Shown: one piece after another, positions 1,229 to 34,480 of the stretch
Layout of the letters: each line of letters begins with the position of its first letter
How positions within the stretch are numbered: the stretch's first letter is position 1
Notes under the pieces: model-generated
What the model was told of the DNA's origin: nothing
Seen by the model: only the letters and a program-made list of their open reading frames with translations
Database searches by the model: none
Translations under genes and position numbers: made by a program
Assembly: GCA_036567845.1 (NCBI GenBank)
Contig: DATCTT010000376.1
Location: 1-53,401, forward strand
Direction: 5' to 3'
Source of the DNA: Candidatus Ozemobacteraceae bacterium
GTDB taxonomy: Bacteria; Muiribacteriota; Ozemobacteria; Ozemobacterales; Ozemobacteraceae
Length of the DNA: 53,401 bases

Positions 1229-1237
1229 CCGGTTCCG

Positions 1238-1267: not shown

Positions 1268-1290
1268 CAATATATATCGAAAGGCATTGT

Positions 1291-2394: not shown

Positions 2395-2407
2395 TCCCCT
2401 CGTGAAG

Positions 2408-2440
2408 AAAAACCGCCGGCCAGATGGCCGGCGGTTTTTT
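2408..2440. terminator. Bidirectional rho-independent terminator. The stem ccgccggcc-agat-ggccggcgg is flanked by A5 upstream and T6 downstream. It serves the convergent genes ending at 2394 (+) and 2456 (-).
   Basis: Perfect 9-bp GC stem with an A-tract on one side and a T-tract on the other. Confidence 0.8.
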
Positions 2441-2455
2441 CGTTGTATCAGTAGC

Positions 2456-3115: not shown

Positions 3116-3198
3116 AGAATTCCTCCGTCAATCTATTGAATTCGCAATTTTATTGATTCTACCAGATTTTTTGTGACGCCGCAAACCGCAGGAAGTTT

Positions 3199-3227
3199 TT
3201 GACAGGCATTTCGGTGGTTGCTAGGAT
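3199..3227 (+). promoter_or_regulatory. Sigma70-type promoter, TTGACA-N17-TAGGAT, positioned to drive the gene at 3296.
   Basis: Consensus -35 hexamer, 17-bp spacer and a TAnnnT -10, about 65 nt upstream of the ATG. The same hexamer pair recurs at 52439. Confidence 0.5.
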
Positions 3228-3295
3228 ATCGTGCAACGCCCGGTTGAATGTGCGCCCCCACCATCGGGCACCGAACGGATCTGAAAGGAGCTTTC

Positions 3296-3940
3296 ATGAC
3301 CCAGCCGACGCAGCCATCAGAAGCCGGCCATCCCGTGTTCGGAGGTTTTTTTCCAATCTACCTGATTGCCGCCGTCATGTTGATGGTGTATTACACCATC
3401 GATTTTCAGGTTCGTGTCTCCCCCGTCATCCGCGACCTCCATGCGCGGACATCCGTGACCTCCAAACCGGCCGCCACGCCTCCCGCCCCGGCAAGCCCCT
3501 CGCCTCAGCCCCATCCGCAGACCGGCATGATTCTGTCCGCATCCGATTCTTCATCCGTCAGCCAGGCTCCGGCCCCGGCAACACCCGAAGCGGTCATCAC
3601 GGCGCCAGAACCCGCTCCCCCAGCCCCGGCGGCCATTCCCGCCACCGAATCCCAGCCGGCCCCTGACGCACCTGACACTGCCGCCCCCTCCGCGGTTTCC
3701 TCCGAGCTATCTGCCGATGTCCCACCGGCGAATGCCACGGTTTCCTCCGAAACGTCCCCTGTGACCCCGCCAACGGACGCGCCGATTTCCTCGGAACCTT
3801 CCACCGTGCTCCCGCCGACGGATACACCGGCTCCCTCTGAGCCCGCATCCCTCTCCCCGGAAACGAGCTCGGCCTCTGAGACCGTTCCGGCTTCGGCGGA
3901 GCCGGCTTCATCACCCCTCGCCCCGGAGGTAGGACAATGA
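3296..3940 (+). CDS. Hypothetical membrane-anchored protein. One N-terminal TM helix (FFPIYLIAAVMLMVYYTI) is followed by a long Pro/Ala/Ser/Thr-rich low-complexity tail.
   Basis: ATG at 3296 preceded by AAAGGAG. A P/S/T/A-rich region of about 170 aa. The stop overlaps the next start as ATGA. Confidence 0.55.
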   Translation: MTQPTQPSEAGHPVFGGFFPIYLIAAVMLMVYYTIDFQVRVSPVIRDLHARTSVTSKPAATPPAPASPSPQPHPQTGMILSASDSSSVSQAPAPATPEAVITAPEPAPPAPAAIPATESQPAPDAPDTAAPSAVSSELSADVPPANATVSSETSPVTPPTDAPISSEPSTVLPPTDTPAPSEPASLSPETSSASETVPASAEPASSPLAPEVGQ

Positions 3941-5787
3941 ATCTGCTCACTCGGTTTTTCGGCGGCCTCCCCGGACTGGTTCTTGCGCTGGTGTCCCTCA
4001 TCATCGCGTTCATCCGGGTGAATGACGTTGCCATCTGCTCTGTGGCCTTGATTCTGAACGTCCTCGTGGCCCGACTCGTCCATCGCCAGACGCTCCAGCC
4101 AGGGCTCCCAGCCGGCTCCTTCCGGTCGATGTTCACCGCCGCCGGGTATACGGCCGTCGCAGCGGCCTTGTATCTGAACCGCGTTCAGCTCCCGTTCGGC
4201 GGGTGTTTCAAAAGTTTCAGCCCAATCGTCGTCCCCTTCATTTTCCTTGCTATTCTCGGTGTCCACTGGGTCAACCGGCGCCTCCACGACGCCGCTCTCG
4301 CCGGCTTTCCGACGAAAGGAGACCGGTGGCTGGCCGAACCAGCGCACGTCGCCGAAGTCGAGCGTGGGTTCATCTGCTTCGGCGTCACGGGAACGCTGTG
4401 GACCCTCGTACTTTCGGCCTGGGTCACGAAGTTCATGCAGCTTTCCCAGGTCAACGCCCTGGGATTCCTCGACTCATCGCTGCATCTCGCCGCCCTGTAT
4501 GCCCTGTATCTCCTGCCGTGGTTCTGTTTCGCCTGGTGGGTCGGGGAACCAGCCGTCAAGCGCGGCATTTATGCCGGGTCCGGTATTTCCCTGGCGGCGG
4601 CTCCCCTTGCCTATCACTGCTACTACCACTCGCTTTCATCCGGCGACTGGTGGCAGATCTTCCTTCCCCCCGGGTCTCATCTGGCGGCGATAACCTTTTT
4701 CGTCACCACCGCGTTTTTTTTCTGGTGGGTGCGGCCCACGGCCTCGACGCGCGGAAGTGGGATCCTCAGTGGCTTCTACCTTGCCATCATTCCGACCATC
4801 CTGCTCCTGCCCGGCATCTATATGATCCTGGCTTGGCATCCGCTGTTCCGTGACGCTTTCGTTCAGGCTCCCAATGTTTCGGCACTCCTGAGCCGCTTCT
4901 ATCCCCTGATTTCAAAGATCATTCTCTTCAGCCCCGTGCCGATCCTGCTCGTCTTTCTGGCTGCAACCTTCGGCGGCACACGTTCCGCCCAGATTTCCGG
5001 GGAACAGGCCACGCAGGTTCCGGGAAGCACGACCGTGGCCGCGGCGGGCTCCCAGACCTTCACGATCCTCCTCGGCCTTCTCCTGCCGCTTCCCTTCCTC
5101 ACCAACCTGCTCACCCAGCTGTTCGCGTTCAGCACGACGTCTGCCGGGGCTCATTATATACCGGCATATATTCTTTCAGCCGCGGCGTTTTTCCCGCTGC
5201 TGTTCGCGGATGTCTTCGTGTTCGCCGGCCTCTGGTCGGCCGGTGCATTCATCGCCCGCGCCTCGCGCCTCCCCCACCCGCAGATGGCCGGAGCAGCCCT
5301 GTTTCTCCTGCAGGCCGTGCTGATCTGGGGATACGATCCGCGCCAGAAGCTCGTGGCCCTGTTCGCAGCCATCCTTGCCGCCCTGCTGATCCTGAAAAAG
5401 ATGTTCGGCGAGACGATCGACGAGTCGCGACGTTCAATGCTCGATTTTCAGCGGTATGTCCTCTGGAGCTGTTTCCTGGGCATGCCGGTCCTGTTCCTGA
5501 CCAGCTTCTCGGTGCTCAGTTTTTTCATTCACTCAGAGCAGCTCGGCAGCCTCGGCAAGCTCTTCGCCCCCGCCACCCGCCCACTTGGCCTCCAGTCTCT
5601 TGGCGGGCTTCTCCACCCCGAGGCGTTCTGGGCTTCGTATCCGGCGCTCACGGCGGCCATCGGTCTGGTGTTTCTCCTCGGACTTCCGCTCATCTGCGTT
5701 CCGCTTTACCTGTATCCCATGTTCAAGGACCAGAAAGCCGCCGAATCCGTGCTTCCCAACACCCCGCCCCCGGCTTCGGATGCCTGA
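3937..5787 (+). CDS. Hypothetical polytopic integral membrane protein of 616 aa with more than 12 predicted TM segments. Translationally coupled to the preceding gene.
   Basis: Long hydrophobic ORF with a 4-bp ATGA overlap with the upstream gene. It contains a T8 homopolymer at 4714-4721. Confidence 0.6.
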   Translation: MNLLTRFFGGLPGLVLALVSLIIAFIRVNDVAICSVALILNVLVARLVHRQTLQPGLPAGSFRSMFTAAGYTAVAAALYLNRVQLPFGGCFKSFSPIVVPFIFLAILGVHWVNRRLHDAALAGFPTKGDRWLAEPAHVAEVERGFICFGVTGTLWTLVLSAWVTKFMQLSQVNALGFLDSSLHLAALYALYLLPWFCFAWWVGEPAVKRGIYAGSGISLAAAPLAYHCYYHSLSSGDWWQIFLPPGSHLAAITFFVTTAFFFWWVRPTASTRGSGILSGFYLAIIPTILLLPGIYMILAWHPLFRDAFVQAPNVSALLSRFYPLISKIILFSPVPILLVFLAATFGGTRSAQISGEQATQVPGSTTVAAAGSQTFTILLGLLLPLPFLTNLLTQLFAFSTTSAGAHYIPAYILSAAAFFPLLFADVFVFAGLWSAGAFIARASRLPHPQMAGAALFLLQAVLIWGYDPRQKLVALFAAILAALLILKKMFGETIDESRRSMLDFQRYVLWSCFLGMPVLFLTSFSVLSFFIHSEQLGSLGKLFAPATRPLGLQSLGGLLHPEAFWASYPALTAAIGLVFLLGLPLICVPLYLYPMFKDQKAAESVLPNTPPPASDA

Positions 5788-15500: not shown

Positions 15501-17492
15501 ATGAGGAACAGTACTCTCAGGTTGCTGAGCAAGGTCATGTGCCTTGTTCTCATCGCCAGCTTCGTTCTCGAAGCTCCTCTGTTCGCGGCCTTCGACGCCA
15601 TCAAGGTGAACGTCGGTGGTCAGCAGGTTCAGGTGACGCCCGGTCAGTGGGTTTCCGTCCGTCAGGGCTCACAGCTCGTTCACTATAATGTCCGCTATGT
15701 GAACGGTCAGCCCGTCGCTCTCGAGATGAGCCAGTATGTGAAGATGGTGTTTGGTGGTGAAACCGCCGCCACTGCCGCTACGGCCGGTCAGACCTCTGCC
15801 GCCGCCAGCACCGCGGGCAAGACCTCGGTTTCCACCCCCTCCACGACCTCCAGCACCGTGAGCGGCCAGGTTGCCAAGCCGGTCACCACGACTCCGGCCG
15901 CGGGGAACGTCGGCACCGTCGCCCAGGCTCCAGCCGCCCCGTCGACGAACGCAGCCCAGGCTCCCACGGTCGCCAAGGCTGACTCCGCCGTCGCCGCCCA
16001 GAGCGGTGCCAAAACCGGCGGCAGCTGGATCAAGGACGAGCTGAACAGCTACGGTCAGAAGATCAAAGACAGCTTCAACTCTGGCAAGACCAGCGGCCAG
16101 GAGTTCGGCACCAAGACCGTCGATACCGTCAAGGACGGCGCCGGCAAGGTCGGAACGGCCGTGAAGACCGGTGGTTCCAAGATCGGCGATCTGCTCCGCA
16201 GCGCCAAAGAACGCGTTTCCAAGATCTTCCACAAGAACACCCCCGCCACCTCCGGCAAGGGCAGTGCTGATTCCGCCCAGAGCGGTCAGTCCGGTCAGAC
16301 CGGCCAGAGCGGTCAGTCCGGCCAGAGCGGCCAGTCCGGCCAGAGCGGTCAGTCCGGCCAGGCTTCCGAGCAGGCTGGTCAGAGCGGTCAGTCCGGTCAG
16401 TCCGGTCAGAGCGGTCAGTCCGGCCAGGCTTCCGAGCAGTCCGGTCAGTCCGGTCAGAGCGGCCAGTCCGGCCAGGCTTCTGAGCAGGCTGGTCAGAGCG
16501 GTCAGTCTTCCGAGCAGACCGGTCAGGCTGCCCAGACGGGCAAGGCCGACAAGCCCGGCATGAAGGAAGTCGCCTCCAGCAAGTTCAAGGCCGGTTATGA
16601 AACCGGTAAGGCCATGGTCGGCCAGGGCGTCCAGAACGTGAAGGACAGCCTCAAGTCCGGCTTCAGCGCCAAGAATCTCCTCGTCACCGCCGGTATCACC
16701 GTGGGTGTCGATCTCGCGACCCAGATCATCCGGGGTGAAAAGCCCAGCCTGAAGAAGGCTGTGAAGGTTGTTGCGTCGGCCGAGTTTGCCGGTGGCGTCG
16801 CCGGTTCCGTCATGGGTGCCGCGGCTGGCTCCTTCTTCGTGCCCTTCCTCACCGCCGTTCCGGTTGTCGGTGGCTTCCTCTCCGCTCTCGCTCCGACCTT
16901 CGGTTCCGTGGTCGGCGGTTCGGTCGGCTCCTACCTCGCCGGCGATCTGAAGAACGGCCGCTTCTCGCTCGCGCAGGCCTTCAAGCAGATCGACTGGATC
17001 GGTGTGGCCGGTCAGTCCGTCGGTTCGACCCTCGGTGCCATGCTCGGCTCGGCGATCTTCCCGCCCTTCGGAACGATCATCGGCGGTATGGTCGGTGGCT
17101 TTGTCGGGAACTGGGCTGCCAAGAAAATCGCCGGTCTGTTCGGTCACAAGACTGACAACTACGGCTCCATCGCGATGCCCGTCGGCACCAACCCGATCGG
17201 CAGCGAGAGCCAGGTCGGCGGCAGCGTGACTATCGGCGGTGTCGCCGGTGGCGCCGAGATCCCGGTCAGCGGCGATCAGGGTGCGGCTCAGGTCACGATC
17301 TCCGGTGATGCCGAGAGCGTCGGAACCTATGCCTCCGAAGTCCAGCTCGCCTATGCCAAGTATCAGGAACTCTATCGCCTCTACAACGAGATGCTCGCTC
17401 AGGGCCGCCAGGAAGACGCCGTGAAGGTCGCTTCCGAAATGAACAAGGCCAAGGGTGAGTACGAAGCCCTCAAGGCCAACTCCAGCAAGTAA
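15501..17492 (+). CDS. Hypothetical secreted protein. It has a signal peptide, Thr/Ser/Ala-rich and (SGQ)n tandem-repeat regions, and a C-terminal Gly-rich glycine-zipper-like hydrophobic domain.
   Basis: ATG at 15501 preceded by AGGAG. Signal peptide MRNSTLRLLSKVMCLVLIASFVLEAPLFA. The repeat array (below) encodes the SGQ run. The C-terminal region is rich in small-xxx-small GxxxG/AxxxG motifs. Confidence 0.65.
   Translation: MRNSTLRLLSKVMCLVLIASFVLEAPLFAAFDAIKVNVGGQQVQVTPGQWVSVRQGSQLVHYNVRYVNGQPVALEMSQYVKMVFGGETAATAATAGQTSAAASTAGKTSVSTPSTTSSTVSGQVAKPVTTTPAAGNVGTVAQAPAAPSTNAAQAPTVAKADSAVAAQSGAKTGGSWIKDELNSYGQKIKDSFNSGKTSGQEFGTKTVDTVKDGAGKVGTAVKTGGSKIGDLLRSAKERVSKIFHKNTPATSGKGSADSAQSGQSGQTGQSGQSGQSGQSGQSGQSGQASEQAGQSGQSGQSGQSGQSGQASEQSGQSGQSGQSGQASEQAGQSGQSSEQTGQAAQTGKADKPGMKEVASSKFKAGYETGKAMVGQGVQNVKDSLKSGFSAKNLLVTAGITVGVDLATQIIRGEKPSLKKAVKVVASAEFAGGVAGSVMGAAAGSFFVPFLTAVPVVGGFLSALAPTFGSVVGGSVGSYLAGDLKNGRFSLAQAFKQIDWIGVAGQSVGSTLGAMLGSAIFPPFGTIIGGMVGGFVGNWAAKKIAGLFGHKTDNYGSIAMPVGTNPIGSESQVGGSVTIGGVAGGAEIPVSGDQGAAQVTISGDAESVGTYASEVQLAYAKYQELYRLYNEMLAQGRQEDAVKVASEMNKAKGEYEALKANSSK
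16276..16536 (+). repeat. In-frame nucleotide tandem repeat with a 9-bp unit (ggtcagtcc / ggccagagc, encoding Gly-Gln-Ser). It is organised into three higher-order copies, each ending in ...caggcttccgagcag(gct/tcc)ggtcag (QASEQAGQ).
   Basis: Direct reading shows about 25 near-identical 9-bp units. The translated product is SGQSGQTGQSGQ...QASEQAGQ repeated three times. Confidence 0.8.
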
Positions 17493-17511
17493 GTCCCGAT
17501 CCAAGACCTGT

Positions 17512-17544
17512 AAACCCCCCGGGGGCTACCCCGGGGGGTTTTTC
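17512..17544 (+). terminator. Rho-independent terminator. G/C hairpin (ccccccggggg-cta-ccccgggggg) followed by TTTTT.
   Basis: Strong GC stem plus a T-tract, 20 nt after the stop codon. Confidence 0.8.
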
Positions 17545-17594
17545 TTGGAACCCCGTTCCGCCCCACCTCGTCCGCAAATAGCAAGGAGTCCGCC

Positions 17595-18131
17595 GTGGAA
17601 ATCATCTTGTCCCGCTCCGTCATCCGATCTTACCGTCCGGACGACGCCAAATCCCTCGCGCATCATGCCAACAACCGGAAGATCTGGCTCAACCTGCGCG
17701 ACCGGTTTCCCCACCCGTACACGGTCGAGGATGCCATCGAGTTCATCGAGAAGGCCACGCATTCCACCCCGGAAACGATGTTCGCGATCTGTGTCGATGG
17801 CGAAGCCGCCGGCGGGATCGGATTCACCCTGCACACTCATGAGCAGCGTCTGACCGCCGAACTTGGCTACTGGCTGGGAGAACGGTTCTGGGGCCGAGGA
17901 ATCATGACCGAGGCGGTGGCGGCACTGACAGCATACGCCCTGAAAAGGCATGGGCTGATCCGGTTCTATGCGATGCCCTATGCAACAAACGCCGGATCGG
18001 TCAGGGTTCTTGAAAAAGCGGGGTATATCTTTGAAGGTCGCCTGCAGAAAAACGTCATAAAGGACAGCAGGATTCTCGATCAGCTCATGTACGCAAAACT
18101 TGCCGAAACAGCGGGTGAGCCGCCTCAGTAA
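17595..18131 (+). CDS. GNAT-family N-acetyltransferase (RimJ/RimL-like).
   Basis: 178 aa. The N-terminus (LRSYRPDDAKSLAHHANNRKIW), the central GxxGF motif and the C-terminal WGRGIMTEAV...A are typical of the GNAT fold. Confidence 0.7.
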   Translation: MEIILSRSVIRSYRPDDAKSLAHHANNRKIWLNLRDRFPHPYTVEDAIEFIEKATHSTPETMFAICVDGEAAGGIGFTLHTHEQRLTAELGYWLGERFWGRGIMTEAVAALTAYALKRHGLIRFYAMPYATNAGSVRVLEKAGYIFEGRLQKNVIKDSRILDQLMYAKLAETAGEPPQ

Positions 18132-18709
18132 TGGTTCAGCACATCGTTTGTGTTTCGCCAACGGGGATCGAGCGCCGCTTCGACAGCCTCCCGGATCGTG
18201 ACGAGGAGCCGCTGGTGGTGCACAACCGGCTCGGTCATGCCATCGGGAATGAGACCGATCTTGATCTCGACCGCAATCTGCCCCTCGCTCAGATCGGCAA
18301 TGCGCAGATCCTCCACAGCCTCCGAGAGGAGGCGCGTGCTCCCGCTCGCATCGGCCCGCTCGAGACGCTTTCCGTCCATCTGATAGGTGACCCGTTTCGA
18401 GGACGTTCCTTCGGGAACCAGCATCGTCCATCCCGAACCGGCTGGCTGAAATGATCGCTTCACGACCGGCTTGCGGTCAGCCCCCGAACCGGCCATGACG
18501 AGCGTAGCACGAGAATTGGAAATATCTCGTTCCAGGGCCTTCAGAATGATCTCGGCCATATCTTTCGCAGCCCCCTTTGCCGTCGCGAGACCGGCGGCAT
18601 GCCGGGCACCAAGCAGCACCTTGAACGCCCCGAAAATGATCAGCCCCGTGATCAGGGACGCCATGAGCAGTTCGACGATCGTGATCCCGCGCTTTTCACG
18701 GCAGTACAT
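18125..18709 (-). CDS. Prepilin-type N-terminal cleavage/methylation-domain protein (pseudopilin / minor pilin).
   Basis: N-terminus MYCREKRG|ITIVELLMASLITGLIIFGAF has the class III signal: Gly before the cleavage site, Glu at +5, then a hydrophobic helix. Its start overlaps the stop of the upstream gene (TGATG). Confidence 0.7.
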   Translation of the reverse strand: MYCREKRGITIVELLMASLITGLIIFGAFKVLLGARHAAGLATAKGAAKDMAEIILKALERDISNSRATLVMAGSGADRKPVVKRSFQPAGSGWTMLVPEGTSSKRVTYQMDGKRLERADASGSTRLLSEAVEDLRIADLSEGQIAVEIKIGLIPDGMTEPVVHHQRLLVTIREAVEAALDPRWRNTNDVLNHY

Positions 18710-19191
18710 CAGGGTTTCACCATCAGAAACACGATCTCTTCCTTCTTGACGGATCCGTCAGCCCCCGTCCAACGGACGGGGGCGCGGAACTCGAGGACAG
18801 CGCTGTTTCCTGGCGTGAAACGGATCTCGGGATCGAGCCGGAAATCCTTGTATTTCGTCTGCACTTCCATGACCTTCTGGATGGTTGCGGGATACCCACC
18901 TTCCATCCGAACGAACTCCTCGCTCTTCGTCGGGTTGAGGGCCGCGAGCTCCTTGAAGGGCCGGCTCGTGATCTCAGAACGAAACGAGTCGAGAATCTTC
19001 CGGGCCATCGACAATTTTGTCGAGTCGATTTCCTTCGTCGCCCCGATTGATATCGCCCGATATATCGGGATCGCGGCCAGAAGGAACACGACCGTGGCGA
19101 TGAGCACTTCGAGCAGCGACAGGCCAGACAGGCCGCGCAGCCGGTTCCCCCCTGTGAATGGCCGGGAAGAAGCTCGTGGAAGTAAGTCCAT
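18709..19191 (-). CDS. Prepilin-type N-terminal cleavage/methylation-domain protein (pseudopilin / minor pilin).
   Basis: ...NRLRGLSG|LSLLEVLIATVVFLLAAIPIYRA has Gly then a helix with Glu at +5. The start was chosen at the ATG at 19191 (MDLLPRA) so as not to overlap the upstream gene ending at 19205. Confidence 0.65.
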   Translation of the reverse strand: MDLLPRASSRPFTGGNRLRGLSGLSLLEVLIATVVFLLAAIPIYRAISIGATKEIDSTKLSMARKILDSFRSEITSRPFKELAALNPTKSEEFVRMEGGYPATIQKVMEVQTKYKDFRLDPEIRFTPGNSAVLEFRAPVRWTGADGSVKKEEIVFLMVKP

Positions 19192-19204
19192 CGTGTGAGA
19201 TTGT

Positions 19205-21706
19205 TCAATTGCGCTTTGCATATTCGAACCTGGCCCAGCGTTTTCCGAGAGTGACAATATACCGTTCCGGATCATATTTGCCAACATCTCTCTGGACCGA
19301 CAGCGGGGTGACGCGGCATGCGGCGCTGTTGTAAAATACTTCGACACTGTGGGCCGCATCGCGCCGGAACTCGTTTGTCACGAGGTTTCCGTCGATGACG
19401 AGCGGGTTTCCCGCCTGGTTCTGCAGCGAATAATTCGAGAAGCAGCTTGCCTGGATTTTCGTGCATGGCGGATCGACAAGAATCGCCCCCCGCCGGGCAA
19501 TCATGGAAAAAACGGCCCGTCCGACGCGCTCGACGTTCGCCGAAAGGCTGATATTGTCGCGAACGACGAGGATGCCTTTGCCTGAAACACGCAGGGTCTC
19601 GGAGATCGTGAGATCCCCGATGATGTATGTAACGCCGGAGCAGTCGAAAGAGCCGTCGGGAGCCATCCGGCCGCCATCGGCCACGGGCACTTTCAGGTCA
19701 TCCCAGAACTGCTCCTCGTTCTCGTAAAAGTGCGTGGCCTTCTTGGCATACTGGAGGAGGCTGTACAGATTGGGAGGCATGCACTCCCATTTTCCCGGAC
19801 TCCAGTCGCCGGGCGCCGCGTAGGCGGGCTTGCCCTGGAGGCCGAAATCCGCTTTCAGATTTTTGTAATAGATCTCGATCTTCGTGATGTCACGGGGGGT
19901 ACCCGCCTGGCCATAGGGCTGCACATTGATCAGGATGTTCGCATACCTCGAGTCAAGCTGGGCCTCGGCCCGCAACCCCAGTGGATACTCAAAGTGCCCT
20001 TTTCCAAACAGCAGGGTCGGAGCGCTGATGGCATCGCAGAACGAAAGAATGGTGAGCATGGATTTCACGCCCGAACGCAGCAGAGGCGGGTTGCAGAGAT
20101 CGGTGTTTCGCAGAACGGGGAAGTCGATCTCGTGCATCCGGTCAGGATTCGTGGCCCGGGAGGTCCATTGAAGCGTCGGAACGATATTGAACCGGGGCTT
20201 CGTCGCCGCGAACTCATCCATCGCCATTGCATTGAATTCCGTCAGGGTCGGTTCATCGACGGTGCCGAGGAACGTGTTGATGGTCATCGCCCCATTCGAG
20301 TTGATGCGAAGCTGACCGGGCACCTGGCAGAGGGAATCGGCCGACGGGTCATCGCCTCCTGTGCCCGACATGCCGGTGCAGCTCTTGTATTCGCCGTCCG
20401 GAAGGTTGTGGATGCAGATCGTCGCAATCCCCCCATTCCAGTCGATGGGGGATTCGATGGCCCCACCCTCCCCGGGATACTTGTCGGATGCCTGCTCGAA
20501 CAACAGGTTCGAATTGGCGACGAAGAATGAATACTCGGGCGCGGGAGGTTGTATATCAGACACTTTATATTCCCGATCAGCCACGAGGGTGCGACTGATC
20601 ACCGGTCCACCCTGCCCCTGGGGCCGGAACGTCACGTCGGCGGTGAACCGGAGGATACCACCCTTCTCGACGACCTTCGGGGCCCTTGATGGACCGAAGG
20701 CCTCCTTGTCGATCATCCCTTTCAGCACCCCGGGTACGGCATTGTAAGCCTTCCGGATGCTCTCCTGAAGAATGTCTGCTTCCCACGTGATAGCGTGAAG
20801 ATCGGCATCTGGTGTTTGGGGCATCATGAGGCGCCGGATCGCGTCGAGGGAAAACACCGGCTCGTCTCCGATATCAATGTAATCCTTCATAACCTGGTTG
20901 ATATCGACCATCTTGGTCTCGTCCATGTCGATGATCAGGGGGATTTTCACCTTGATCCGGATGCTGAGCGTGTAATCGTTCACCTTGGTCACCCGAACAA
21001 ACCGGTCCTCGGCAAAATCCTCGCCAATCGATGGCCGGAGCTTGATCAATTCTTCATCCTGGGTCTGAAAGTTCGGCAGGTTCACCTTGACCCCGAGCGA
21101 GCCAATCAGATCCTCGACACGCCCGGCATTTTTCGCGGAATCATCGAAATCATCGAGAAACGCCGCCGTTTCGCCATTCGTCGGGCGGGGCATGATCGAG
21201 ACTCCGGGAACCGCGTATCCCGGCCTTTTCGAAGTGAACGCAGCGGCAGAGAGGACCTCGCATTTCAGTCCGAGTGTGACCCGGTCGGGGCCGCCCAACT
21301 CCGCGAGCATGTTCGCGATCGGCGCCAGGGCCGGCGTCGTCAGATCGAAGGACGGGAGAGGATTTGCGGCATAGGGAGAGAGGTTCAGGGGGGAGTTCTG
21401 CCCTGTGGCATCGCTCATTTTTCCGTTGGTGATCTCGGCCGGATACCGGAAATACTGATAGATATTCGGGTCCGACTTCTCATTCATCCGGTCCTTCACG
21501 TATCTCAGGACCAGCTCAATCGAAGCCTCGGCGAGCGCCTCAGCCTTCTTCTCATTGCTGGCGAAACGCGTGAGATAATGCCTCGAGGTGTTCGTCCGAA
21601 AGAAGGAGATGACGATGATGAGCAGAATGCCGATGACGCCTATCACGACAAGATAGGCGGATCCGGCCACGGCAGGCCGGGTGCAGCGCTCAGCTTTTCC
21701 GGTCAT
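19205..21706 (-). CDS. Large (about 830 aa) membrane-anchored pilus-associated protein with a PilX_N-like N-terminal hydrophobic segment. Candidate pilus tip/minor-pilin complex component (GspK/PilX/PilY1-like role).
   Basis: N-terminus MTGKAERCTRPAVAGSAYLVVIGVIGILLIIVISFF resembles the PilX N-terminal domain. The ATG at 21706 is preceded by GAGG. It lies in an operon with two pseudopilin genes immediately downstream. Confidence 0.5.
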   Translation of the reverse strand: MTGKAERCTRPAVAGSAYLVVIGVIGILLIIVISFFRTNTSRHYLTRFASNEKKAEALAEASIELVLRYVKDRMNEKSDPNIYQYFRYPAEITNGKMSDATGQNSPLNLSPYAANPLPSFDLTTPALAPIANMLAELGGPDRVTLGLKCEVLSAAAFTSKRPGYAVPGVSIMPRPTNGETAAFLDDFDDSAKNAGRVEDLIGSLGVKVNLPNFQTQDEELIKLRPSIGEDFAEDRFVRVTKVNDYTLSIRIKVKIPLIIDMDETKMVDINQVMKDYIDIGDEPVFSLDAIRRLMMPQTPDADLHAITWEADILQESIRKAYNAVPGVLKGMIDKEAFGPSRAPKVVEKGGILRFTADVTFRPQGQGGPVISRTLVADREYKVSDIQPPAPEYSFFVANSNLLFEQASDKYPGEGGAIESPIDWNGGIATICIHNLPDGEYKSCTGMSGTGGDDPSADSLCQVPGQLRINSNGAMTINTFLGTVDEPTLTEFNAMAMDEFAATKPRFNIVPTLQWTSRATNPDRMHEIDFPVLRNTDLCNPPLLRSGVKSMLTILSFCDAISAPTLLFGKGHFEYPLGLRAEAQLDSRYANILINVQPYGQAGTPRDITKIEIYYKNLKADFGLQGKPAYAAPGDWSPGKWECMPPNLYSLLQYAKKATHFYENEEQFWDDLKVPVADGGRMAPDGSFDCSGVTYIIGDLTISETLRVSGKGILVVRDNISLSANVERVGRAVFSMIARRGAILVDPPCTKIQASCFSNYSLQNQAGNPLVIDGNLVTNEFRRDAAHSVEVFYNSAACRVTPLSVQRDVGKYDPERYIVTLGKRWARFEYAKRN

Positions 21707-22619
21707 TGAAATACGCCTCGAATTCACCGATCCGCTCCCGCACATCTGCTTCGACCCGTTCACGATCGGCAGATGAAGTGGCGCGCATGTTCTTCATGTC
21801 CCGTTCGACGATCCGGTCCAAGGCCGCACGATCGTTGGCAGCCTTGAGATGTTCGCTCATATACTCGGCATAATCCGCCGCCTGACTCGATTTTTCCAGG
21901 CCGAGCACGCCGAGATCGTTGTCGCGTTGCAAATCGCCTTGGCTCTTGAGGAGGTTGGCGAACAGCATCTTGTCCTTCATGCGGGCGGCCGCCTGGAGCA
22001 TATAATCGTAGATGAGATATTTCGATACGGCCGAAGCATCCGGGTCATCGAGGGCTCTGTCGAACGCCCTCAGCGCCCCCTGGAAGTCGCTCGCCTCAAG
22101 CAGACGGATTCCTTCCTTCATATCGGGAAGCAGCCGCAGGCGGTAGACCTCGCGGGTTTTTCCGGTCAGATTCTCATCGTTGAGCTTTTCCCGCATCCAG
22201 GACTCGGAAGCATCGAGCACCTTCCGCCGATGTTCTCGGATCCGGCTCGCCTTTTCCTCGAGCTGGGCAGCCGTGTCGGGGGTCAGACGCACAGGGGGAA
22301 GATCAGGCTGCTCGCCCGTCATCTCGAGCGGGGACAGCCCATTCGTTCCCGCTTTCCCGTTTACAGCACCGGGAACCGCGCCCGGCGTCGTGGGCAGGCT
22401 CGATCCCATCTGGGTGCTTGTCCCCGTGTTCCGGCCGCCGGATGTTGTGGGTGTGGTTTGTTTCTCCCGGCTTGCCCCCCGGGTGGTCGCCTGCTCTTCT
22501 CCCCCGCTGGGAGACGCAACATGGGGGCGGGCCGGCTTGGATCTGAGATACAACAGGAATAACGAGAACAGGCAGATCGACACAACCAGAGCAACGATGG
22601 CAACCCGCTGGTTATCCAC
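21690..22619 (-). CDS. Hypothetical bitopic membrane protein. An N-terminal TM helix is followed by a Thr/Ser/Gly-rich linker and an alpha-helical domain. It is the first gene of the pilin-like operon.
   Basis: GTG start with an AGAGGGA RBS. TM segment MDNQRVAIVALVVSICLFSLFLLYL. Its stop overlaps the start of the downstream gene by 17 bp. Confidence 0.5.
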   Translation of the reverse strand: MDNQRVAIVALVVSICLFSLFLLYLRSKPARPHVASPSGGEEQATTRGASREKQTTPTTSGGRNTGTSTQMGSSLPTTPGAVPGAVNGKAGTNGLSPLEMTGEQPDLPPVRLTPDTAAQLEEKASRIREHRRKVLDASESWMREKLNDENLTGKTREVYRLRLLPDMKEGIRLLEASDFQGALRAFDRALDDPDASAVSKYLIYDYMLQAAARMKDKMLFANLLKSQGDLQRDNDLGVLGLEKSSQAADYAEYMSEHLKAANDRAALDRIVERDMKNMRATSSADRERVEADVRERIGEFEAYFNDRKS

Positions 22620-22941
22620 GATATATCCCTCTGCTCTTCACTTCGCTTTTGCTGAATATCTCATCTTGTTCCAGAATGAAGACGCTGGACGTCGCCACAG
22701 GGTTCCCGGAATTCCCTCACTCCAGCGTTCCCCGGGATTATAATAACATGAATTGCCGTCCCCGTGGCATAGGCCATAGATCGTGAAAAGGCTCCGGGAG
22801 CAACATCTTCGTCGGAAAGGGTTTTCCGCGAACCACGGAATATGGGGTTTCGGTCCGCAAGAGAATCTGCTACTATTTTCCTCCGGAGACATTCCGGCGG
22901 TGCTGATGGCCGCGATAATTCCCCGATGAAAGGACCTTCTC

Positions 22942-23466
22942 ATGATCAGCAAGAAAATGGCTAAAGTCATCAATGAACAGATCACCAAGGAGCTGTTTTC
23001 GGGATATCTGTATCTCTCGATGGCTTCCTACTTCGAAGTCGAGAATCTTCCCGGAATGGCCAACTGGATGCGCGTTCAGGCTCAGGAAGAGACAGCGCAT
23101 GCGATGATTTTCTTCAACTACATGGCCGACCATGGTGAGCGGGCTCTGATGGGAGCCATCGCCGCCCCCGAGACAGGGTTCAAGTCGGTTCTCGACGTGT
23201 TCGAGAAGACGCTTGCCCATGAAAAGACCGTGACGGCCTCGATCTACAAGCTGCTCGACCAGGCAGTCGCCGATCATGACTACGCAACCCAGAACTTCCT
23301 CCAGTGGTTCGTCAAGGAGCAGGTCGAAGAGGAAAAGAATGCTGACATGCTCATCGGCCAGATAAAGCGCATCGGAAAAAGCGAAGACGGCCTGTTCATG
23401 CTCGACCGGCAGCTCGCAACCCGCGTCTTCACGATGCCGATCCCGCTTGCCGGGGGTGCGGCGTAA
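22942..23466 (+). CDS. Non-haem ferritin (Ftn family).
   Basis: INEQI.KEL..GYLYLSMASYF...L.G.A.WMRVQAQEE..HAM.FF.YM matches the ferritin ferroxidase-centre helices. About 170 aa. Confidence 0.8.
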   Translation: MISKKMAKVINEQITKELFSGYLYLSMASYFEVENLPGMANWMRVQAQEETAHAMIFFNYMADHGERALMGAIAAPETGFKSVLDVFEKTLAHEKTVTASIYKLLDQAVADHDYATQNFLQWFVKEQVEEEKNADMLIGQIKRIGKSEDGLFMLDRQLATRVFTMPIPLAGGAA

Positions 23467-31643: not shown

Positions 31644-34028
31644 ATGAAGATTCTGTTGAGCTGGCTTCGTGATTACATCGATATTCAGGTCACTCCCGAG
31701 CAGATCGCCGACGCCCTGCAGATGGCCGGCATCGAAGTCGAGTCGATCCATCAGCCCGGGAAGGGCCTTTCCAAGGTCGTCGTCGGCCAGATTCTCACCC
31801 GCGGCCCCCATCCCAATGCCGATAAACTGTCGATCTGCACCGTGAACGTCGGAGCGGCTGATCCGCTGAAAATCGTCTGCGGCGCCCCGAACTGCGACGC
31901 CGGCAACAAGGTGCCCGTCGCAATGATCGGCGCCTCGCTTCCCACCGGCTTTGAGATCAGGAAGGCGAAGATCCGGGGCGAGGAGTCGTTCGGTATGATG
32001 TGCAGCCGGCGCGAGCTCGGTATCAGCGACGAGCACGAGGGGCTCTGGCTCCTCCCGCCGGAAGCAAATATCGGCGAAGATATTGTGAAGGCCGCCGGCA
32101 TGGATGATGTGATCTTCGAGATCAGCATCACCCCGAACCGCGGCGACGCGCTTTCTCATCTCGGCATCGCCCGCGAGCTCTCGGCAATCTTCAACCTGCC
32201 GCTCCATCGCGAGGGCCTTGCCGGCCACGCCGGGGAAGGCGACGTCTCGTCCCAGACCAGCGTCACGATCGAGGCCCCCGACCTGTGCCCCCGGTACGGC
32301 GCGCGCATCGTCCGAAACGTCAGGGTCGGCCCCAGCCCCCGCTGGATGAAGGACCGTCTCGAGAAGGTCGGCCTGCGGGCGATCAACAATGTCGTGGATG
32401 TCACAAATTATATATTGATGGATATTGGTCATCCGATGCACGCGTTCGACCTTGACCGGCTCGAGGAGAACCGGATCGTCGTGCGACGCGCTTCCGAGGG
32501 CGAGAAGATCCGCACCCTCGATGGGACCGACCGCAAACTGACCTCCGAAATGCTCGTCATCGCCGATGCGGCCCAGCCGGTAGCGATAGCGGGTGTCATG
32601 GGCGGCTTCAACACGATGGTCACCGACGCGACATCGAGCATCCTGCTCGAGGCGGCCGTGTTCGATCCGATCAGCGTCCGGAAGACCTCGAAGCAGCTCG
32701 CCCTGATGTCCGACTCGTCATACCGGTTCGAGCGCGGCACGAACATTGACAACGTGCCGATCGCCCTCAACGAGGCGGCACGCCTTCTGGGCGAGATCGC
32801 CGGCGGCAAGGCCGCGGCAGGTATCGTCGATGCCTACCCCGCCCCCGCCCCCCTGAAACGGCTCATGCTGCGCACACGGCGTACCTGCCGCCTCATCGGG
32901 GTCGACCTGAAGCCGCAGCAGATCGAAACCCTGCTCCTGCGCCTCAAGTTCGAGGTGACGCGCGAAGGCGAGACGCTGTGGGTCGGCGTGCCGCCCTACC
33001 GGCACGACATCGAGCAGGAGGCCGACCTGATCGAAGAGGTCGCCCGCCTCTACGGCTACAACAACATCCCGGCGAAGCTGCCCGCGATTTCGGCCGCGCC
33101 ACGTCTGGAAACCCCGCTTCAGGCCCTGACAAAACGCATCCGCGACCATCTCACCAGCCTCGGCCTGCATGAAACGATGACCTACAGCTTCATCCCGGCC
33201 GCCACGCCGGCCGAATTGGCCGAAGGCGAGCCCCTGAAACTCCAGAATCCGCTTTCCGAAGAACTGGCCGTGATGCGCACCGGTCTCCTGTCCGGCATGA
33301 TCGATGCGGTCAAACGCAACGTGATGGCCGATGAGTATGACCTGCCGCTGTTCGAGATGGGCCGTGTCTTCCACCGCGGTGCCGGCGGCCTGTCGCAGGA
33401 GTTCGACCGGCTCTGCATCGGCCTGTGCGGCTCCGCCAACGCCTCCGACTGGCACCGCAGCCGTGAACCGAATGACCTCTACCGGCTCAAGGGGCTGGTC
33501 ACCACGATCGGCCACCTCGCCGGCCAGCAGATCCAGTTCAAGCCCGGCACTTCGCCCGCCCTGCATCCTTCCTGCCAGTTCCAGGTGCTCGTCGGCAACA
33601 AGCCTGCTGGCATTCTCGGCCAGATTAATCCCAAATGGCTCGACAACCGCAAGCTGCCACGGGAGATCTTCTTCGCCGAGATCGACATCGGCCTGATCGC
33701 TTCCCTGCCTCGTCCGATGCCCCGATTCAAGGCGATTCCCGAGTTCCCGGCCATCCGTCGCGACCTCGCCCTGCTGCTTCCCGTAACGATACAGCACGAC
33801 CAGGTGATCGGCATCGTGAAGGCGGAAGCGGGTCCCCTGCTCGAAGACGTGCGCCTGTTCGACGTGTATCAGGGAAAAGGCCTCGAGCCGGGCCGCCGCT
33901 CCCTCGCTTTTTCGTTGACATTCCGCTCGCCCGAGCGCACTCTTACAGAAGAGGATGTTCAACCCCGCATCGACGCCGTCGTCGCAAAAATAGGCCGGGA
34001 CCTCGATGGCCGCCTGCGAGACAAGTGA
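31644..34028 (+). CDS. pheT: Phenylalanine--tRNA ligase beta subunit.
   Basis: MKILLSWLRDYIDI... N-terminus, tRNA-binding/B3-4/B5/FDX-ACB domain order and an 794-aa length. It immediately follows pheS. Confidence 0.9.
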   Translation: MKILLSWLRDYIDIQVTPEQIADALQMAGIEVESIHQPGKGLSKVVVGQILTRGPHPNADKLSICTVNVGAADPLKIVCGAPNCDAGNKVPVAMIGASLPTGFEIRKAKIRGEESFGMMCSRRELGISDEHEGLWLLPPEANIGEDIVKAAGMDDVIFEISITPNRGDALSHLGIARELSAIFNLPLHREGLAGHAGEGDVSSQTSVTIEAPDLCPRYGARIVRNVRVGPSPRWMKDRLEKVGLRAINNVVDVTNYILMDIGHPMHAFDLDRLEENRIVVRRASEGEKIRTLDGTDRKLTSEMLVIADAAQPVAIAGVMGGFNTMVTDATSSILLEAAVFDPISVRKTSKQLALMSDSSYRFERGTNIDNVPIALNEAARLLGEIAGGKAAAGIVDAYPAPAPLKRLMLRTRRTCRLIGVDLKPQQIETLLLRLKFEVTREGETLWVGVPPYRHDIEQEADLIEEVARLYGYNNIPAKLPAISAAPRLETPLQALTKRIRDHLTSLGLHETMTYSFIPAATPAELAEGEPLKLQNPLSEELAVMRTGLLSGMIDAVKRNVMADEYDLPLFEMGRVFHRGAGGLSQEFDRLCIGLCGSANASDWHRSREPNDLYRLKGLVTTIGHLAGQQIQFKPGTSPALHPSCQFQVLVGNKPAGILGQINPKWLDNRKLPREIFFAEIDIGLIASLPRPMPRFKAIPEFPAIRRDLALLLPVTIQHDQVIGIVKAEAGPLLEDVRLFDVYQGKGLEPGRRSLAFSLTFRSPERTLTEEDVQPRIDAVVAKIGRDLDGRLRDK

Positions 34029-34061
34029 CAGACACGTGCACGGCGTCCAGGGAGGATCGTC

Positions 34062-34388
34062 ATGAGCGAACTGTATCAGATATGTCTCGATCAGGCCGTC
34101 GCGCAATTTATTGCCCTTGCTATCATCGGCCTGGTCTCCGGCGCCTGGGTCTACCGTCTCTGGTCCAACGCCCAACTCGCCCATGTAAAGCTAACGTTCG
34201 GAGAAAATCTGCAGATCTATATCTTCGGGGCTGCAGCCCTGATCGTCGCCATGATCATGTTCGGGTATATCGCCTTCCCCGGGAATGCGGACGCTCTCAT
34301 GGAGGCCCTCGGACTCAAGTATCCCCTGATGACGCTCACGCATTTTGTCCAGAGAGGTATGCTCTGGTTTGTGCGGCTCATGATGTGA
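34062..34388 (+). CDS. Hypothetical small membrane protein (108 aa, 2-3 TM segments).
   Basis: ORF in the gap between pheT and the next gene, preceded by GGAGGA. Hydrophobic segments are present. No recognisable family. Confidence 0.35.
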   Translation: MSELYQICLDQAVAQFIALAIIGLVSGAWVYRLWSNAQLAHVKLTFGENLQIYIFGAAALIVAMIMFGYIAFPGNADALMEALGLKYPLMTLTHFVQRGMLWFVRLMM

Positions 34389-34480
34389 GCCTGGTCGACC
34401 TACACCGCCGGCTGACGGATGACAATCCGCAGCCGGCGGTTTCCGTTCAAGGAAGCAGCAAAACGCATATGGAGGATGGT

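What the first reader, a model, noticed from the sequence alone, without database searches (positions are those of the whole stretch)
18125..22619. Orphan four-gene pseudopilin / minor-pilin operon with an 830-aa PilX_N-like protein
On the minus strand there are four consecutive, overlapping genes. They encode a bitopic membrane protein, an 830-aa protein with a PilX_N-type N-terminal helix, and two small proteins with textbook prepilin class III signals (G|xxxxE). Within the 53 kb there is no secretion ATPase, platform protein, prepilin peptidase or secretin. The flanking genes are a GNAT acetyltransferase and, divergently, a ferritin. The set looks like a priming/tip complex module (GspH-K / PilVWXY-like) detached from its machinery. 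The giant third protein has no recognisable domains beyond its N-terminus and could be a new tip adhesin.
Basis: partly seen in the sequence, partly recalled or inferred. Interest (0 to 1): 0.6.

Follow-up and report, generated by a model that had tools for sequence, protein, structure and literature searches.

The report
Riflebacteria pilus-tip module with giant cap pilin
This is a real, conserved operon of an uncultured Riflebacteria genome that encodes the three-protein "tip" of a type IV pilus-like filament; its 833-residue cap protein resembles the ComZ cap of Thermus and the PilX caps of cyanobacteria, so it is a new variant of a known kind and not a new system.

Summary
Four translationally coupled minus-strand genes lie at 18125-22619: A (309 aa, membrane anchor plus TPR-like domain), B (833 aa), C (about 160 aa) and D (194 aa).

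C and D carry class III prepilin signals that are conserved in all orthologues: G or A at -1, Glu at +5. B has an invariant Gly-Ser-Ala motif and no Glu5, as capping pilins do.

The module is colinear in about 35 Riflebacteria loci and never lies next to core machinery. A related genome that carries the module also encodes a GspE/PilB-type ATPase elsewhere.

Two features are new. Gene A duplicates together with B. A highly conserved glycine-zipper membrane protein (E, 15501-17492) is almost always adjacent.

Not settled: C's fold, the locations of the prepilin peptidase, platform and secretin, and the ligand of the cap.

The parts
21690..22619 (-). Gene A: 309-aa bitopic membrane protein. It has an N-terminal TM helix, a variable Ser/Thr/Pro/Gly-rich linker of about 100 aa, and a conserved all-helical C-terminal domain of about 190 aa that contains a TPR-like unit. 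It is the first gene of the operon.
   Evidence: ORF. GTG start with a GAGGGA Shine-Dalgarno sequence. No Pfam or NCBIfam hit. Profile positions 167-194 match consensus TPR proteins in the PDB (E down to 5.5e-20 because the targets are repetitive). An orthologue sits immediately upstream of B in all loci. A and B are duplicated together in tandem in L036 (A-B-A'-B'-C-D). Topology is unresolved: K/R counts are 52 in the short N-tails against 82 in the 15 residues after the TM helix.
19205..21706 (-). Gene B: 833-aa cap pilin of the GspK/PilX/ComZ type. It has a basic leader, an invariant G-S-A, a hydrophobic α1 helix without Glu5, a pilin-like fold, extra α/β regions and a C-terminal ice-binding-protein-like β-solenoid. 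A final long β-strand (residues 813-826 in the numbering of the 830-residue modelled sequence, which starts at Lys4 of the 833-aa protein) follows the solenoid.
18709..19191 (-). Gene C: minor pilin of about 160 aa with a class III signal (…RGLSG|LSLLEV…). It is the presumed PilV/GspI/PilA2-like subunit. The start is uncertain: ATG 19191, ATG 19221, or a non-canonical start closer to the motif.
   Evidence: Motif. In 27 distinct orthologue N-termini, -1 is G (19) or A (8) and +5 is Glu in every one. N_methyl hits 6/7 orthologues, best E 7.7e-7; the window copy scores 16.1 bits, below the cut-off of 21.2. Weak NCBIfam hits to PilV (E 0.1) and GspI (E 0.15). The profile hits only pilin N-termini in the PDB. 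The fold was not modelled.
18125..18709 (-). Gene D: 194-aa minor pilin with a class III signal (MYCREKRG|ITIVEL…). It has a 54-residue α1 helix and a two-sheet β domain of the GspJ/PilW/PilA3 type. Its C-terminal tail, DPRWRxxxDVxNxY, has several invariant residues and is predicted to be disordered.
15501..17492 (+). It has a signal peptide, a conserved N-domain of about 55 aa, a low-complexity region with (SGQ)n repeats, a cluster of glycine-zipper hydrophobic helices and a C-terminal coiled coil. Whether it belongs to the system is inferred, not shown.
   Evidence: Pfam Gly-zipper_Omp, sub-threshold. No NCBIfam or PDB family. Orthologues lie directly upstream on the same strand (E-A-B-C-D) or directly downstream and convergent, in 25 Riflebacteria loci plus the window; they are absent near L019 and L036. 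The C-terminal 300 aa are nearly invariant. One paralogue lies next to a second pilin cluster (L041) and one lies 8 kb from a GspE-like ATPase (L043). Three other paralogues have no such neighbours.
22620..22941 (.). Intergenic region of 322 bp between gene A and the divergent ferritin gene. It is the presumed promoter region of the A-B-C-D operon.
   Evidence: Sequence; it contains a TATAAT hexamer near 22745. The consensus scan found no promoter or terminator above shuffled expectation in 17400-23100, so the assignment rests on position only.

Best explanation
A-B-C-D is a minor-pilin operon of a Candidatus Ozemobacteraceae (Riflebacteria) chromosome. It builds the priming and tip complex of a type IV filament, most likely a type IV pilus.

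C (PilV/GspI-like) and D (PilW/GspJ-like) are prepilins. They would be inserted in the inner membrane, cleaved after Gly/Ala(-1) by a prepilin peptidase encoded elsewhere, and would pair through their N-terminal helices.

B joins them as the distal subunit. It has the pilin helix and fold but no Glu5, so nothing can be added above it. Its large β-solenoid, of ice-binding-protein type as in Thermus ComZ and cyanobacterial PilX, plugs and caps the tip and is the likely ligand-binding surface (DNA, polysaccharide or another surface).

The trimer nucleates polymerisation of a major pilin by a GspE/PilB-type ATPase and platform located elsewhere in the genome.

A, a membrane-anchored TPR-like protein that always precedes B and duplicates with it, is inferred to be a B-specific chaperone or docking factor. 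The neighbouring glycine-zipper protein E may be a further membrane partner.

Shown here: the gene set, its conservation, the signal motifs, and the folds of B and D. Inferred: processing, trimer formation, tip location, and the roles of A and E.
For: - Operon structure and conservation in about 35 loci with changing flanks.
- Class III signals under strict selection: +5 Glu in all of 27 (C) and 28 (D) distinct N-termini, G/A at -1, basic leaders. N_methyl hits across both families.
- This is the same pair of similarities, GspK plus an ice-binding protein, that the ComZ paper reports. That paper shows that ComZ binds PilA2 and argues that ComZ sits at the tip (PMC6561018).
- Cyanobacterial PilX proteins have the same solenoid-in-pilin design, and their gene order PilX-PilV-PilW(-FimT) is the order of B-C-D (bioRxiv 10.64898/2026.02.12.705559).
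- A GspE/PilB-family ATPase is encoded in MAG GCA_020725785.1, which also carries the module. It is 46% identical to E. coli GspE over 385 aa (E 5e-111) and has Walker A/B, a His box and a tetracysteine motif.
- A and B are co-duplicated in L036.
- Other K-I-J-type modules exist in Riflebacteria (L019, L041), which fits interchangeable tips.
Against: - No prepilin peptidase, platform protein, secretin or major pilin was located in any Riflebacteria sequence available to me. The ATPase is in a related MAG (B 46% identical), not in the window's genome.
- C's fold was not modelled. Its GspI/PilV assignment rests on size, position and HMM hits at E 0.1-0.15.
- There is no fourth, GspH/FimU/FimT-like pilin in the module.
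- B has no sequence-level link to ComZ, GspK, PilX_N or HpsA. The Foldseek match is not significant (prob 0.21). The AF2 alignments are shallow (28 and 14 sequences).
- I could not inspect coordinates, so the insertion topology of the solenoid is inferred only from the order of secondary-structure elements.
- Profile-to-sequence comparisons with E. coli GspG-K detect only the N-terminal helix.
Confidence: 0.75

Rival explanations
1. The module is the tip of a type II secretion pseudopilus (GspK-GspI-GspJ proper). It would act as a periplasmic piston that pushes exoproteins through a secretin, not as the cap of a surface pilus.
Against: B lacks a sequence match to T2SSK and carries a β-solenoid of several hundred residues. 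That feature is so far described in pilus cap pilins (ComZ, cyanobacterial PilX), not in GspK. There is no GspG or GspH next to the module, whereas T2SS operons usually keep G-H-I-J-K together, as in E. coli. Several K-I-J modules per genome (L019, L041) fit alternative pilus tips better. The ATPase carries an MshEN domain, which by general knowledge is typical of MshE/PilB-type pilus ATPases.
Confidence: 0.15
2. The module is specifically a ComZ-like competence system: B is a tip DNA receptor for natural transformation.
For: ComZ is the best full-length structural match by two methods. ComZ binds DNA and PilA2. In cyanobacteria one PilX/PilV set is dedicated to competence.
Confidence: 0.15
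3. The five conserved genes (E, A, B, C, D) form a self-contained envelope system specific to Riflebacteria. It would use pilin-like subunits but not the canonical type IV filament machine, with the glycine-zipper protein E and the TPR protein A as its own membrane apparatus.
For: No core gene lies within ±10 kb in about 600 kb of Riflebacteria loci. E is adjacent in 25 Riflebacteria loci plus the window despite inversions, and it is much more conserved than A-D. A paralogous E sits beside a second TPR-plus-pilin cluster.
Against: Strict retention of G/A(-1) and Glu5 is what prepilin peptidase processing and ATPase-driven assembly select for. A GspE/PilB ATPase exists in a genome that carries the module. 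Three of five E paralogues have no pilin neighbours. Unlinked minor-pilin operons are normal by general knowledge.
Confidence: 0.06
4. The class III motifs and the PilX-like N-terminus are chance or decayed features, and the genes are unrelated membrane proteins.
For: The window's own C and D score below Pfam's N_methyl cut-off (15.5-16.1 bits against 21.2). B has no HMM hit.
Against: The motifs are conserved across 27-28 distinct orthologues at 26-80% identity. The folds of B and D match pilins. Synteny is universal.
Confidence: 0.01

Closest known systems
Thermus thermophilus competence pilins ComZ-PilA2-PilA3 (PDB 6qvi; TTHA1218/1219)
   Different: No detectable sequence similarity. B is about 300 residues longer, with additional α/β regions. 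The gene order differs (B-C-D here; pilA1-A2-A3-comZ in Thermus). There is no PilA1/GspH-like fourth pilin. A TPR membrane protein precedes B. The ligand is unknown.
Cyanobacterial core minor-pilin sets PilX-PilV-PilW-FimT with β-solenoid PilX / HpsA-like PilX_EPS (bioRxiv 10.64898/2026.02.12.705559)
   Same: [quoted passage not shown] Some subfamilies have expanded solenoids and extra domains. The gene order X-V-W is the same. There are several sets per genome.
   Different: Different phylum. No NCBIfam or Pfam hit of B to an HpsA or PilX model. No FimT-like gene here. The accessory genes A and E are not described there. I could not compare structures directly because AFDB was unavailable.
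Type II secretion minor pseudopilin tip GspK-GspI-GspJ (PDB 3ci0; XcpX-V-W 5vtm)
   Different: B has a β-solenoid, which GspK is not described as having (its α-domain is general knowledge; the presence of such a domain in B was not examined). There are no Pfam T2SSK/T2SSJ/T2SSI matches. The module is not embedded in a gspC-O operon (compare E. coli).
Modular type IV pilins (Streptococcus sanguinis PilB with a vWA module, PilC with a lectin module)
   Different: The grafted module here is a β-solenoid, not a vWA or lectin domain. The host is inferred to be diderm, and the subunit is a cap, not one that sits along the filament.

Membership tests
Type IV pilin-like proteins (class III signal peptide) - genes C and D | Short basic leader ending in Gly (or Ala) at -1, immediately before the mature N-terminus | tested here: met
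   C: G 19 / A 8 of 27 distinct orthologue N-termini. D: G 21 / A 7 of 28. K/R-rich leaders. In the window: RGLSG|LSLLEV and EKRG|ITIVEL.
Type IV pilin-like proteins (class III signal peptide) - genes C and D | Glu at mature position +5, followed by a hydrophobic α1N segment of about 20 residues | tested here: met
   Glu5 is present in every C and D orthologue examined. D's model has a continuous helix over residues 11-64.
Type IV pilin-like proteins (class III signal peptide) - genes C and D | Match to the curated N-terminal methylation HMM (Pfam PF07963 / TIGR02532) above its cut-off | tested here: inconclusive
   The window copies score 15.5-16.1 bits against a cut-off of 21.2; TIGR02532 gives E 0.42 for C. 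The families match: 14/14 D orthologues (best 5.7e-6) and 6/7 C orthologues (best 7.7e-7).
Type IV pilin-like proteins (class III signal peptide) - genes C and D | Cleavage and N-methylation by a prepilin peptidase (PilD/GspO, peptidase A24) encoded in the genome | not testable with these tools
   No A24 peptidase in the window or in about 600 kb of related loci. The rest of the MAG could not be reached.
GspJ / PilW / PilA3-type minor pilin - gene D | Pilin α1 helix followed by the two-β-sheet GspJ fold | tested here: met
GspJ / PilW / PilA3-type minor pilin - gene D | Sequence-level match to T2SSJ (PF11612) or TIGR01711 gspJ above its cut-off | tested here: not met
   TIGR01711 E 0.0099, 15.7 bits against a cut-off of 64.85, N-terminus only. 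PF11612 hits 1/14 orthologues at E 0.14. hhalign of the globular part against E. coli GspJ gives no signal.
GspI / PilV / PilA2-type minor pilin - gene C | Small pilin with the GspI fold that pairs with the J- and K-type subunits | tested here: inconclusive
   Only weak HMM hits: PilV E 0.1, GspI E 0.15. hhalign detects the N-terminal helix only. Position between the K-like and J-like genes and a mature size of about 135 aa are consistent.
GspK / PilX-type capping pilin - gene B | Prepilin-like N-terminus with Gly at -1 but no Glu5 | tested here: met
   G-S-A is invariant in 28 aligned homologues, with a hydrophobic residue at +5. Distant family members keep RKGSA.
GspK / PilX-type capping pilin - gene B | Pilin-type fold after α1 | tested here: met
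GspK / PilX-type capping pilin - gene B | Match to Pfam PilX_N (PF14341) or T2SSK models | tested here: not met
   0 of 28 family members at E <= 1. No NCBIfam gspK hit.
ComZ / β-solenoid PilX-type tip pilin - gene B | Large triangular β-solenoid of ice-binding-protein (DUF3494) type joined to the pilin fold | tested here: met
ComZ / β-solenoid PilX-type tip pilin - gene B | Solenoid inserted between the penultimate and the last β-strand of the pilin sheet | tested here: inconclusive
   The order of secondary-structure elements fits: β-hairpins 345-393, then solenoid strands through about 789, then a final long strand 813-826.
ComZ / β-solenoid PilX-type tip pilin - gene B | Binding to the adjacent PilV/GspI-like pilin, and location at the filament tip | not testable with these tools
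The only support is the adjacency of B and C in all loci.
Type IV filament system (T4P or T2SS) as a whole | Assembly ATPase of the GspE/PilB family in the same genome | tested here: inconclusive
   Present in sister MAG GCA_020725785.1, which carries the module (L009) and, on another contig (L043), a 1172-aa MshEN+T2SSE protein that is 46% identical to E. coli GspE, E 5e-111. Not testable for the window's own genome, because the window is one complete contig.
Type IV filament system (T4P or T2SS) as a whole | Platform protein (PilC/GspF), major pilin, and a secretin if the organism is diderm | not tested
   None found in the sequence held. No tool allowed a scan of whole Riflebacteria MAGs.

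The most novel reading that the evidence does not exclude
The TPR membrane protein A and the near-invariant glycine-zipper protein E are dedicated, previously undescribed accessory components of giant-cap pilus tips. A would be a membrane-tethered chaperone that holds the 90-kDa cap pilin B, or binds D's invariant disordered C-terminal tail, until the tip complex forms. E would be an oligomeric membrane element that lets the bulky tip pass. Together they would define a Riflebacteria-specific five-gene tip-assembly system, with paralogous copies (L041, L019, L036) that provide interchangeable tips.
Probability: 0.2. Interest if true: 0.6.

Novelty: new variant of a known kind. Interest (0 to 1): 0.4.

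Why it matters
The finding extends the 'β-solenoid cap pilin' design to a third, uncultured phylum. Until now it was known from one solved structure (Thermus ComZ) and a 2026 survey of cyanobacterial PilX. The Riflebacteria version belongs to a sequence family with no Pfam, NCBIfam or PDB relative: 216 proteins among 1.84 billion cluster representatives.

This supports the idea that a solenoid-bearing PilX/GspK-type cap, in place of a PilY1-type plug, is a widespread and probably ancient way to finish a type IV filament.

It gives names to four 'hypothetical proteins' that are conserved across Riflebacteria.

It also points to two candidate accessory proteins, TPR protein A and glycine-zipper protein E, whose genetic linkage could be tested.

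It does not reveal a new kind of machine.

Tried and rejected
- **Sequence routes for B.** Pfam, NCBIfam, phmmer and profile searches against the PDB gave nothing. PilX_N, T2SSK and HpsA membership could not be shown by sequence.
- **Profile searches of C and D against the PDB** hit only full-length pilin N-termini such as geopilin, TcpA and PilE.
- **hhalign of the C and D families against E. coli GspG-K.** With the first 30 residues removed, nothing remained. Sequence therefore cannot tell GspI-likeness from GspJ-likeness.
- **Looking for core machinery.** There was none in the window or in 39 related loci. Literature searches on Riflebacteria pili and secretion found no genome description. 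The ATPase was found only by chance, next to an E paralogue. The peptidase, platform and secretin were not found.
- **Promoter and terminator scan** found nothing above shuffled expectation.
- **Topology of A** by the positive-inside rule was ambiguous.
- **E as a known family.** It gave only sub-threshold Gly-zipper_Omp and low-complexity artefacts (collagen, mucin, SclB). Three of five E paralogues have no pilin neighbours, so E's link to the module remains a hypothesis.
- **A distinct 'extra upstream gene' in L003 and L008.** I considered and rejected this: the gene is the orthologue of window gene E.
Full report
**What is in the sequence**

On the minus strand of the window lie four consecutive ORFs.

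- A: 21690-22619, 309 aa.
- B: 19205-21763 as the maximal ORF. The real start is most likely the ATG at 21706, which gives 833 aa, the same length as the closest homologue P0001.
- C: 18709-19359 as the maximal ORF. The probable start is the ATG at 19191, or the one at 19221.
- D: 18125-18709, 194 aa.

A's stop overlaps B's start by 17 nt. C's ATG lies 13 nt after B's stop. C and D share ATGA. A starts at a GTG preceded by GAGGGA.

The flanks are a convergent GNAT gene, whose end overlaps D's end by 7 nt, and a divergent ferritin gene.

Pfam scans of about 40 ORFs of the window found only housekeeping and signalling genes, among them pheST, infC, a SpoU methylase, an amino-acid permease, a GAF-PAS cyclase, SpoIIE phosphatases and a GGDEF protein. 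They found no T2SSE, T2SSF, A24 peptidase or secretin. A phmmer search with E. coli GspC-O against all ORFs of 80 aa or more in the window and 39 related loci also found none.

**Organism and conservation**

D is 100% identical to a protein of an NCBI 'Candidatus Ozemobacteraceae bacterium' MAG whose contig is 53,401 bp long. The window is that whole contig.

Homologues of B are found only in Riflebacteria/Ozemobacteraceae MAGs. All are named 'hypothetical protein' and none has a Pfam domain.

A scan of one genome per GTDB species returned 30 loci. With the loci from exact look-ups this gives about 35 independent loci. In every one that is long enough, the order A-B-C-D is kept, while the surrounding genes change. 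B identity runs from 91% down to 28%.

An HMM of B, read against 1.84 billion cluster representatives, finds only 216 proteins at E <= 1e-3. The distant ones (560-1000 aa) keep the RKGSA N-terminus, a PPAPEY-like motif and the C-terminal β-helix repeats.

**C and D are prepilins**

In 27 (C) and 28 (D) distinct orthologue N-termini, the residue before the hydrophobic stretch is Gly or Ala. The leader is short and basic, and mature position 5 is Glu without exception.

The window's own copies score just under Pfam's N_methyl cut-off (15.5-16.1 bits against 21.2). However, 14/14 D orthologues and 6/7 C orthologues match the model, with best E-values of 5.7e-6 and 7.7e-7. Profiles of both families hit only the N-terminal helices of full-length pilins in the PDB.

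I infer its assignment as the GspI/PilV/PilA2-type partner from three things: its size, its position between the K-like and J-like genes, and weak hits to PilV (E 0.1) and GspI (E 0.15).

**B is a cap pilin with a β-solenoid**

B's N-terminus is a basic leader, an invariant Gly-Ser-Ala and a hydrophobic helix with a hydrophobic residue at +5. That is the pattern of GspK/PilX-type subunits, which lack Glu5. No HMM for PilX_N, T2SSK or HpsA matches any of 28 family members, and there is no sequence match in the PDB.

Foldseek, an independent method, also ranks ComZ first, aligned over 559 columns, followed by ice-binding proteins. But no hit reaches E 1e-3.

This is the same pair of similarities reported for ComZ itself: a GspK-like pilin domain plus an ice-binding-protein-like solenoid. 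The ComZ paper shows that ComZ binds the neighbouring pilin PilA2 and binds DNA. It argues that such a bulky subunit can only sit at the tip (PMC6561018).

A 2026 preprint reports that all cyanobacterial PilX homologues have the same design. In them the solenoid is inserted before the last β-strand, some have expanded solenoids and extra domains (HpsA-like), and the proposed role is a tip plug in place of PilY1. The genes are often ordered PilX-PilV-PilW-FimT (bioRxiv 10.64898/2026.02.12.705559). That is the order of B, C and D.

In B's model the solenoid strands end near residue 789 and a final long strand (813-826) follows. This fits that insertion topology, but I could not inspect coordinates.

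**How it most likely works**

Shown here: the operon, its conservation, the motifs, and the folds of B and D.

Inferred from established knowledge of GspIJK and the PilVWX priming complexes:

1. C and D are inserted in the inner membrane and cleaved by a prepilin peptidase.
2. They pair through their α1 helices.
3. B, which has no Glu5, takes the distal position.
4. The trimer nucleates polymerisation of a major pilin and stays at the tip. There B's solenoid plugs the end and presents a binding surface.

The ligand is unknown. DNA (as for ComZ) and a polysaccharide or other surface (as for tapirins and PilX_EPS) are both open.

No core gene lies within 10 kb in any locus. But this is ordinary for minor-pilin operons.

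By following a paralogue of the neighbouring gene E, I found a contig of MAG GCA_020725785.1, the same assembly that carries the module in L009. It encodes a 1172-aa MshEN+T2SSE protein that is 46% identical to E. coli GspE over 385 aa (E 5e-111), with intact Walker A/B, His box and tetracysteine motifs. At least the assembly ATPase of a type IV filament machine therefore exists in a genome that carries the module.

The prepilin peptidase, the platform, the secretin and the major pilin were not found in the sequence I could reach.

**What is not standard**

(i) Gene A. It has a TM helix, a variable low-complexity linker and a conserved helical domain with a TPR-like unit. It precedes B in every locus. 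In the divergent locus L036, A and B are duplicated together (A-B-A'-B'-C-D), and both B copies are enlarged by coiled-coil inserts. This argues that A works with B specifically, for example as a membrane-tethered chaperone or docking factor for the 90-kDa cap. Which side of the membrane carries the TPR domain is unresolved. D's several invariant C-terminal tail residues lie in a stretch that is predicted to be disordered. That tail would be a plausible TPR ligand, but this is speculation.

It has a signal peptide, a small conserved N-domain, (SGQ)n low complexity, a cluster of glycine-zipper helices and a coiled coil. It lies directly upstream on the same strand (E-A-B-C-D) in the deeper-branching lineages and directly downstream, convergent, in Ozemobacteraceae: 25 Riflebacteria loci plus the window. 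It is absent near L019 and L036. Its C-terminal 300 residues are almost invariant, far more conserved than A-D. Of five paralogues examined:

- one sits beside a second cluster made of a TM-TPR protein, two class III pilins and a 523-aa K-like protein (L041);
- one lies 8 kb from the ATPase (L043);
- three have no such neighbours.

The link is suggestive, not established.

(iii) There is no GspH/FimU/FimT-like fourth pilin in the module.

(iv) Riflebacteria carry further K-I-J-type modules, for example L019 with a 678-aa K-like protein behind an ECF sigma/anti-sigma pair. This fits interchangeable tips on a shared machine.

**Rivals**

- A T2SS pseudopilus tip is compatible with the GspJ/GspK matches and the GspE-like ATPase. 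It is disfavoured by the solenoid cap, by the absence of GspG/H next to the module and by the multiple modules per genome.
- A specifically ComZ-like DNA receptor is possible but has no independent support.
- A self-contained five-gene system that works without canonical machinery is unlikely, given the strict retention of Gly(-1) and Glu5 and the presence of the ATPase.
- Chance is excluded.

**Verdict**

In kind, this is a core minor-pilin tip complex with a β-solenoid cap pilin, already described in Thermus and in cyanobacteria. Here it appears in a new phylum and in a sequence family without any curated model. It also has two co-conserved accessory genes that are not described elsewhere. 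I rate it a new variant of a known kind, with moderate interest.

**Caveats**

- The alignments behind the models are shallow.
- C has no structural test.
- Core machinery was demonstrated only in a related MAG.

Noticed in passing
window 176-1228 (+): A 350-aa ORF with a Pfam MVP_shoulder domain (E 1.1e-31) and Vault_3: a bacterial protein that resembles the major vault protein. It lies at the left edge of the contig and is followed by four ORFs (1225-5787) with no Pfam match.
   Followed up: no
window 16275-16536 (+), inside gene E: A long run of in-frame SGQ/SGQSGQASEQ repeats. It causes spurious collagen, mucin and SclB HMM hits. In other assemblies it probably causes truncated gene calls of E, which appear as 'proteins' of about 290 aa.
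   Followed up: partly
L036 9060-18445 (Candidatus Riflebacteria MAG JAAYNI010000023.1): Tandem duplication of the first two genes: A-B-A'-B'-C-D. The two B copies are 1037 and 1069 aa and carry long charged, coiled-coil-like inserts.
   Followed up: partly
L019 3348-7818 (minus strand): A second module in K-I-J order lies about 2.4 kb upstream of the main module: a 678-aa protein with RKG|IALWLVLL, then class III pilins of 161 and 280 aa. It is preceded by an ECF-type sigma factor and a putative anti-sigma gene.
   Followed up: partly
L041 8849-15591 (Ca. Ozemobacter sibiricus QOQW01000019.1): A paralogue of gene E is followed by a 629-aa TM+TPR protein. Convergent to these are two class III pilins (about 141 and 151 aa) and a 523-aa protein with a PilX-like N-terminus. 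This looks like a second, sequence-unrelated pilin module with the same kinds of neighbours.
   Followed up: partly
L043 1-2136 (minus; GCA_020725785.1 DYEH01000009.1): A 1172-aa MshEN+T2SSE ATPase, unusually long for the family, is 46% identical to E. coli GspE. Its neighbours are BsuPI, DUF4384, caspase-like (Peptidase_C14) and TPR/OmpA genes, not pil or gsp genes. The gene runs off the end of the locus.
   Followed up: partly
window 18125-18160 (C-terminus of D) and orthologues: D ends in the tail DPRWRxxxDVxNxY-COOH. Asp, Arg and Arg are invariant and Trp, Asp and the terminal Tyr nearly so, yet the tail has pLDDT below 50 in the model. This is the signature of a short linear motif that binds a partner.
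   Followed up: no
L020 (DYKG01000019.1) and L031 (SABV01000198.1); also L044: Contigs that carry the Riflebacteria-specific module or E gene are deposited under other names: 'Candidatus Methylomirabilis sp.' and 'Erysipelotrichia bacterium'. These are probably mis-binned or mislabelled MAGs.
   Followed up: no
L038 9503-11224 and L039 7302-9032: Short (573-576 aa) B-like proteins occur alone among housekeeping genes, with no class III pilins within 10 kb. L038 is from a Candidatus Wallbacteria MAG and L039 is from an unnamed 'uncultured bacterium' MAG. They keep the RKGS motif, a PPAPEY-like motif and the C-terminal β-helix.
   Followed up: partly
window 33635-36790 (+): A 1051-aa VIT+VWA protein lies next to pheT. 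A VIT/VWA gene occupies the same position in L005 and L006.
   Followed up: no
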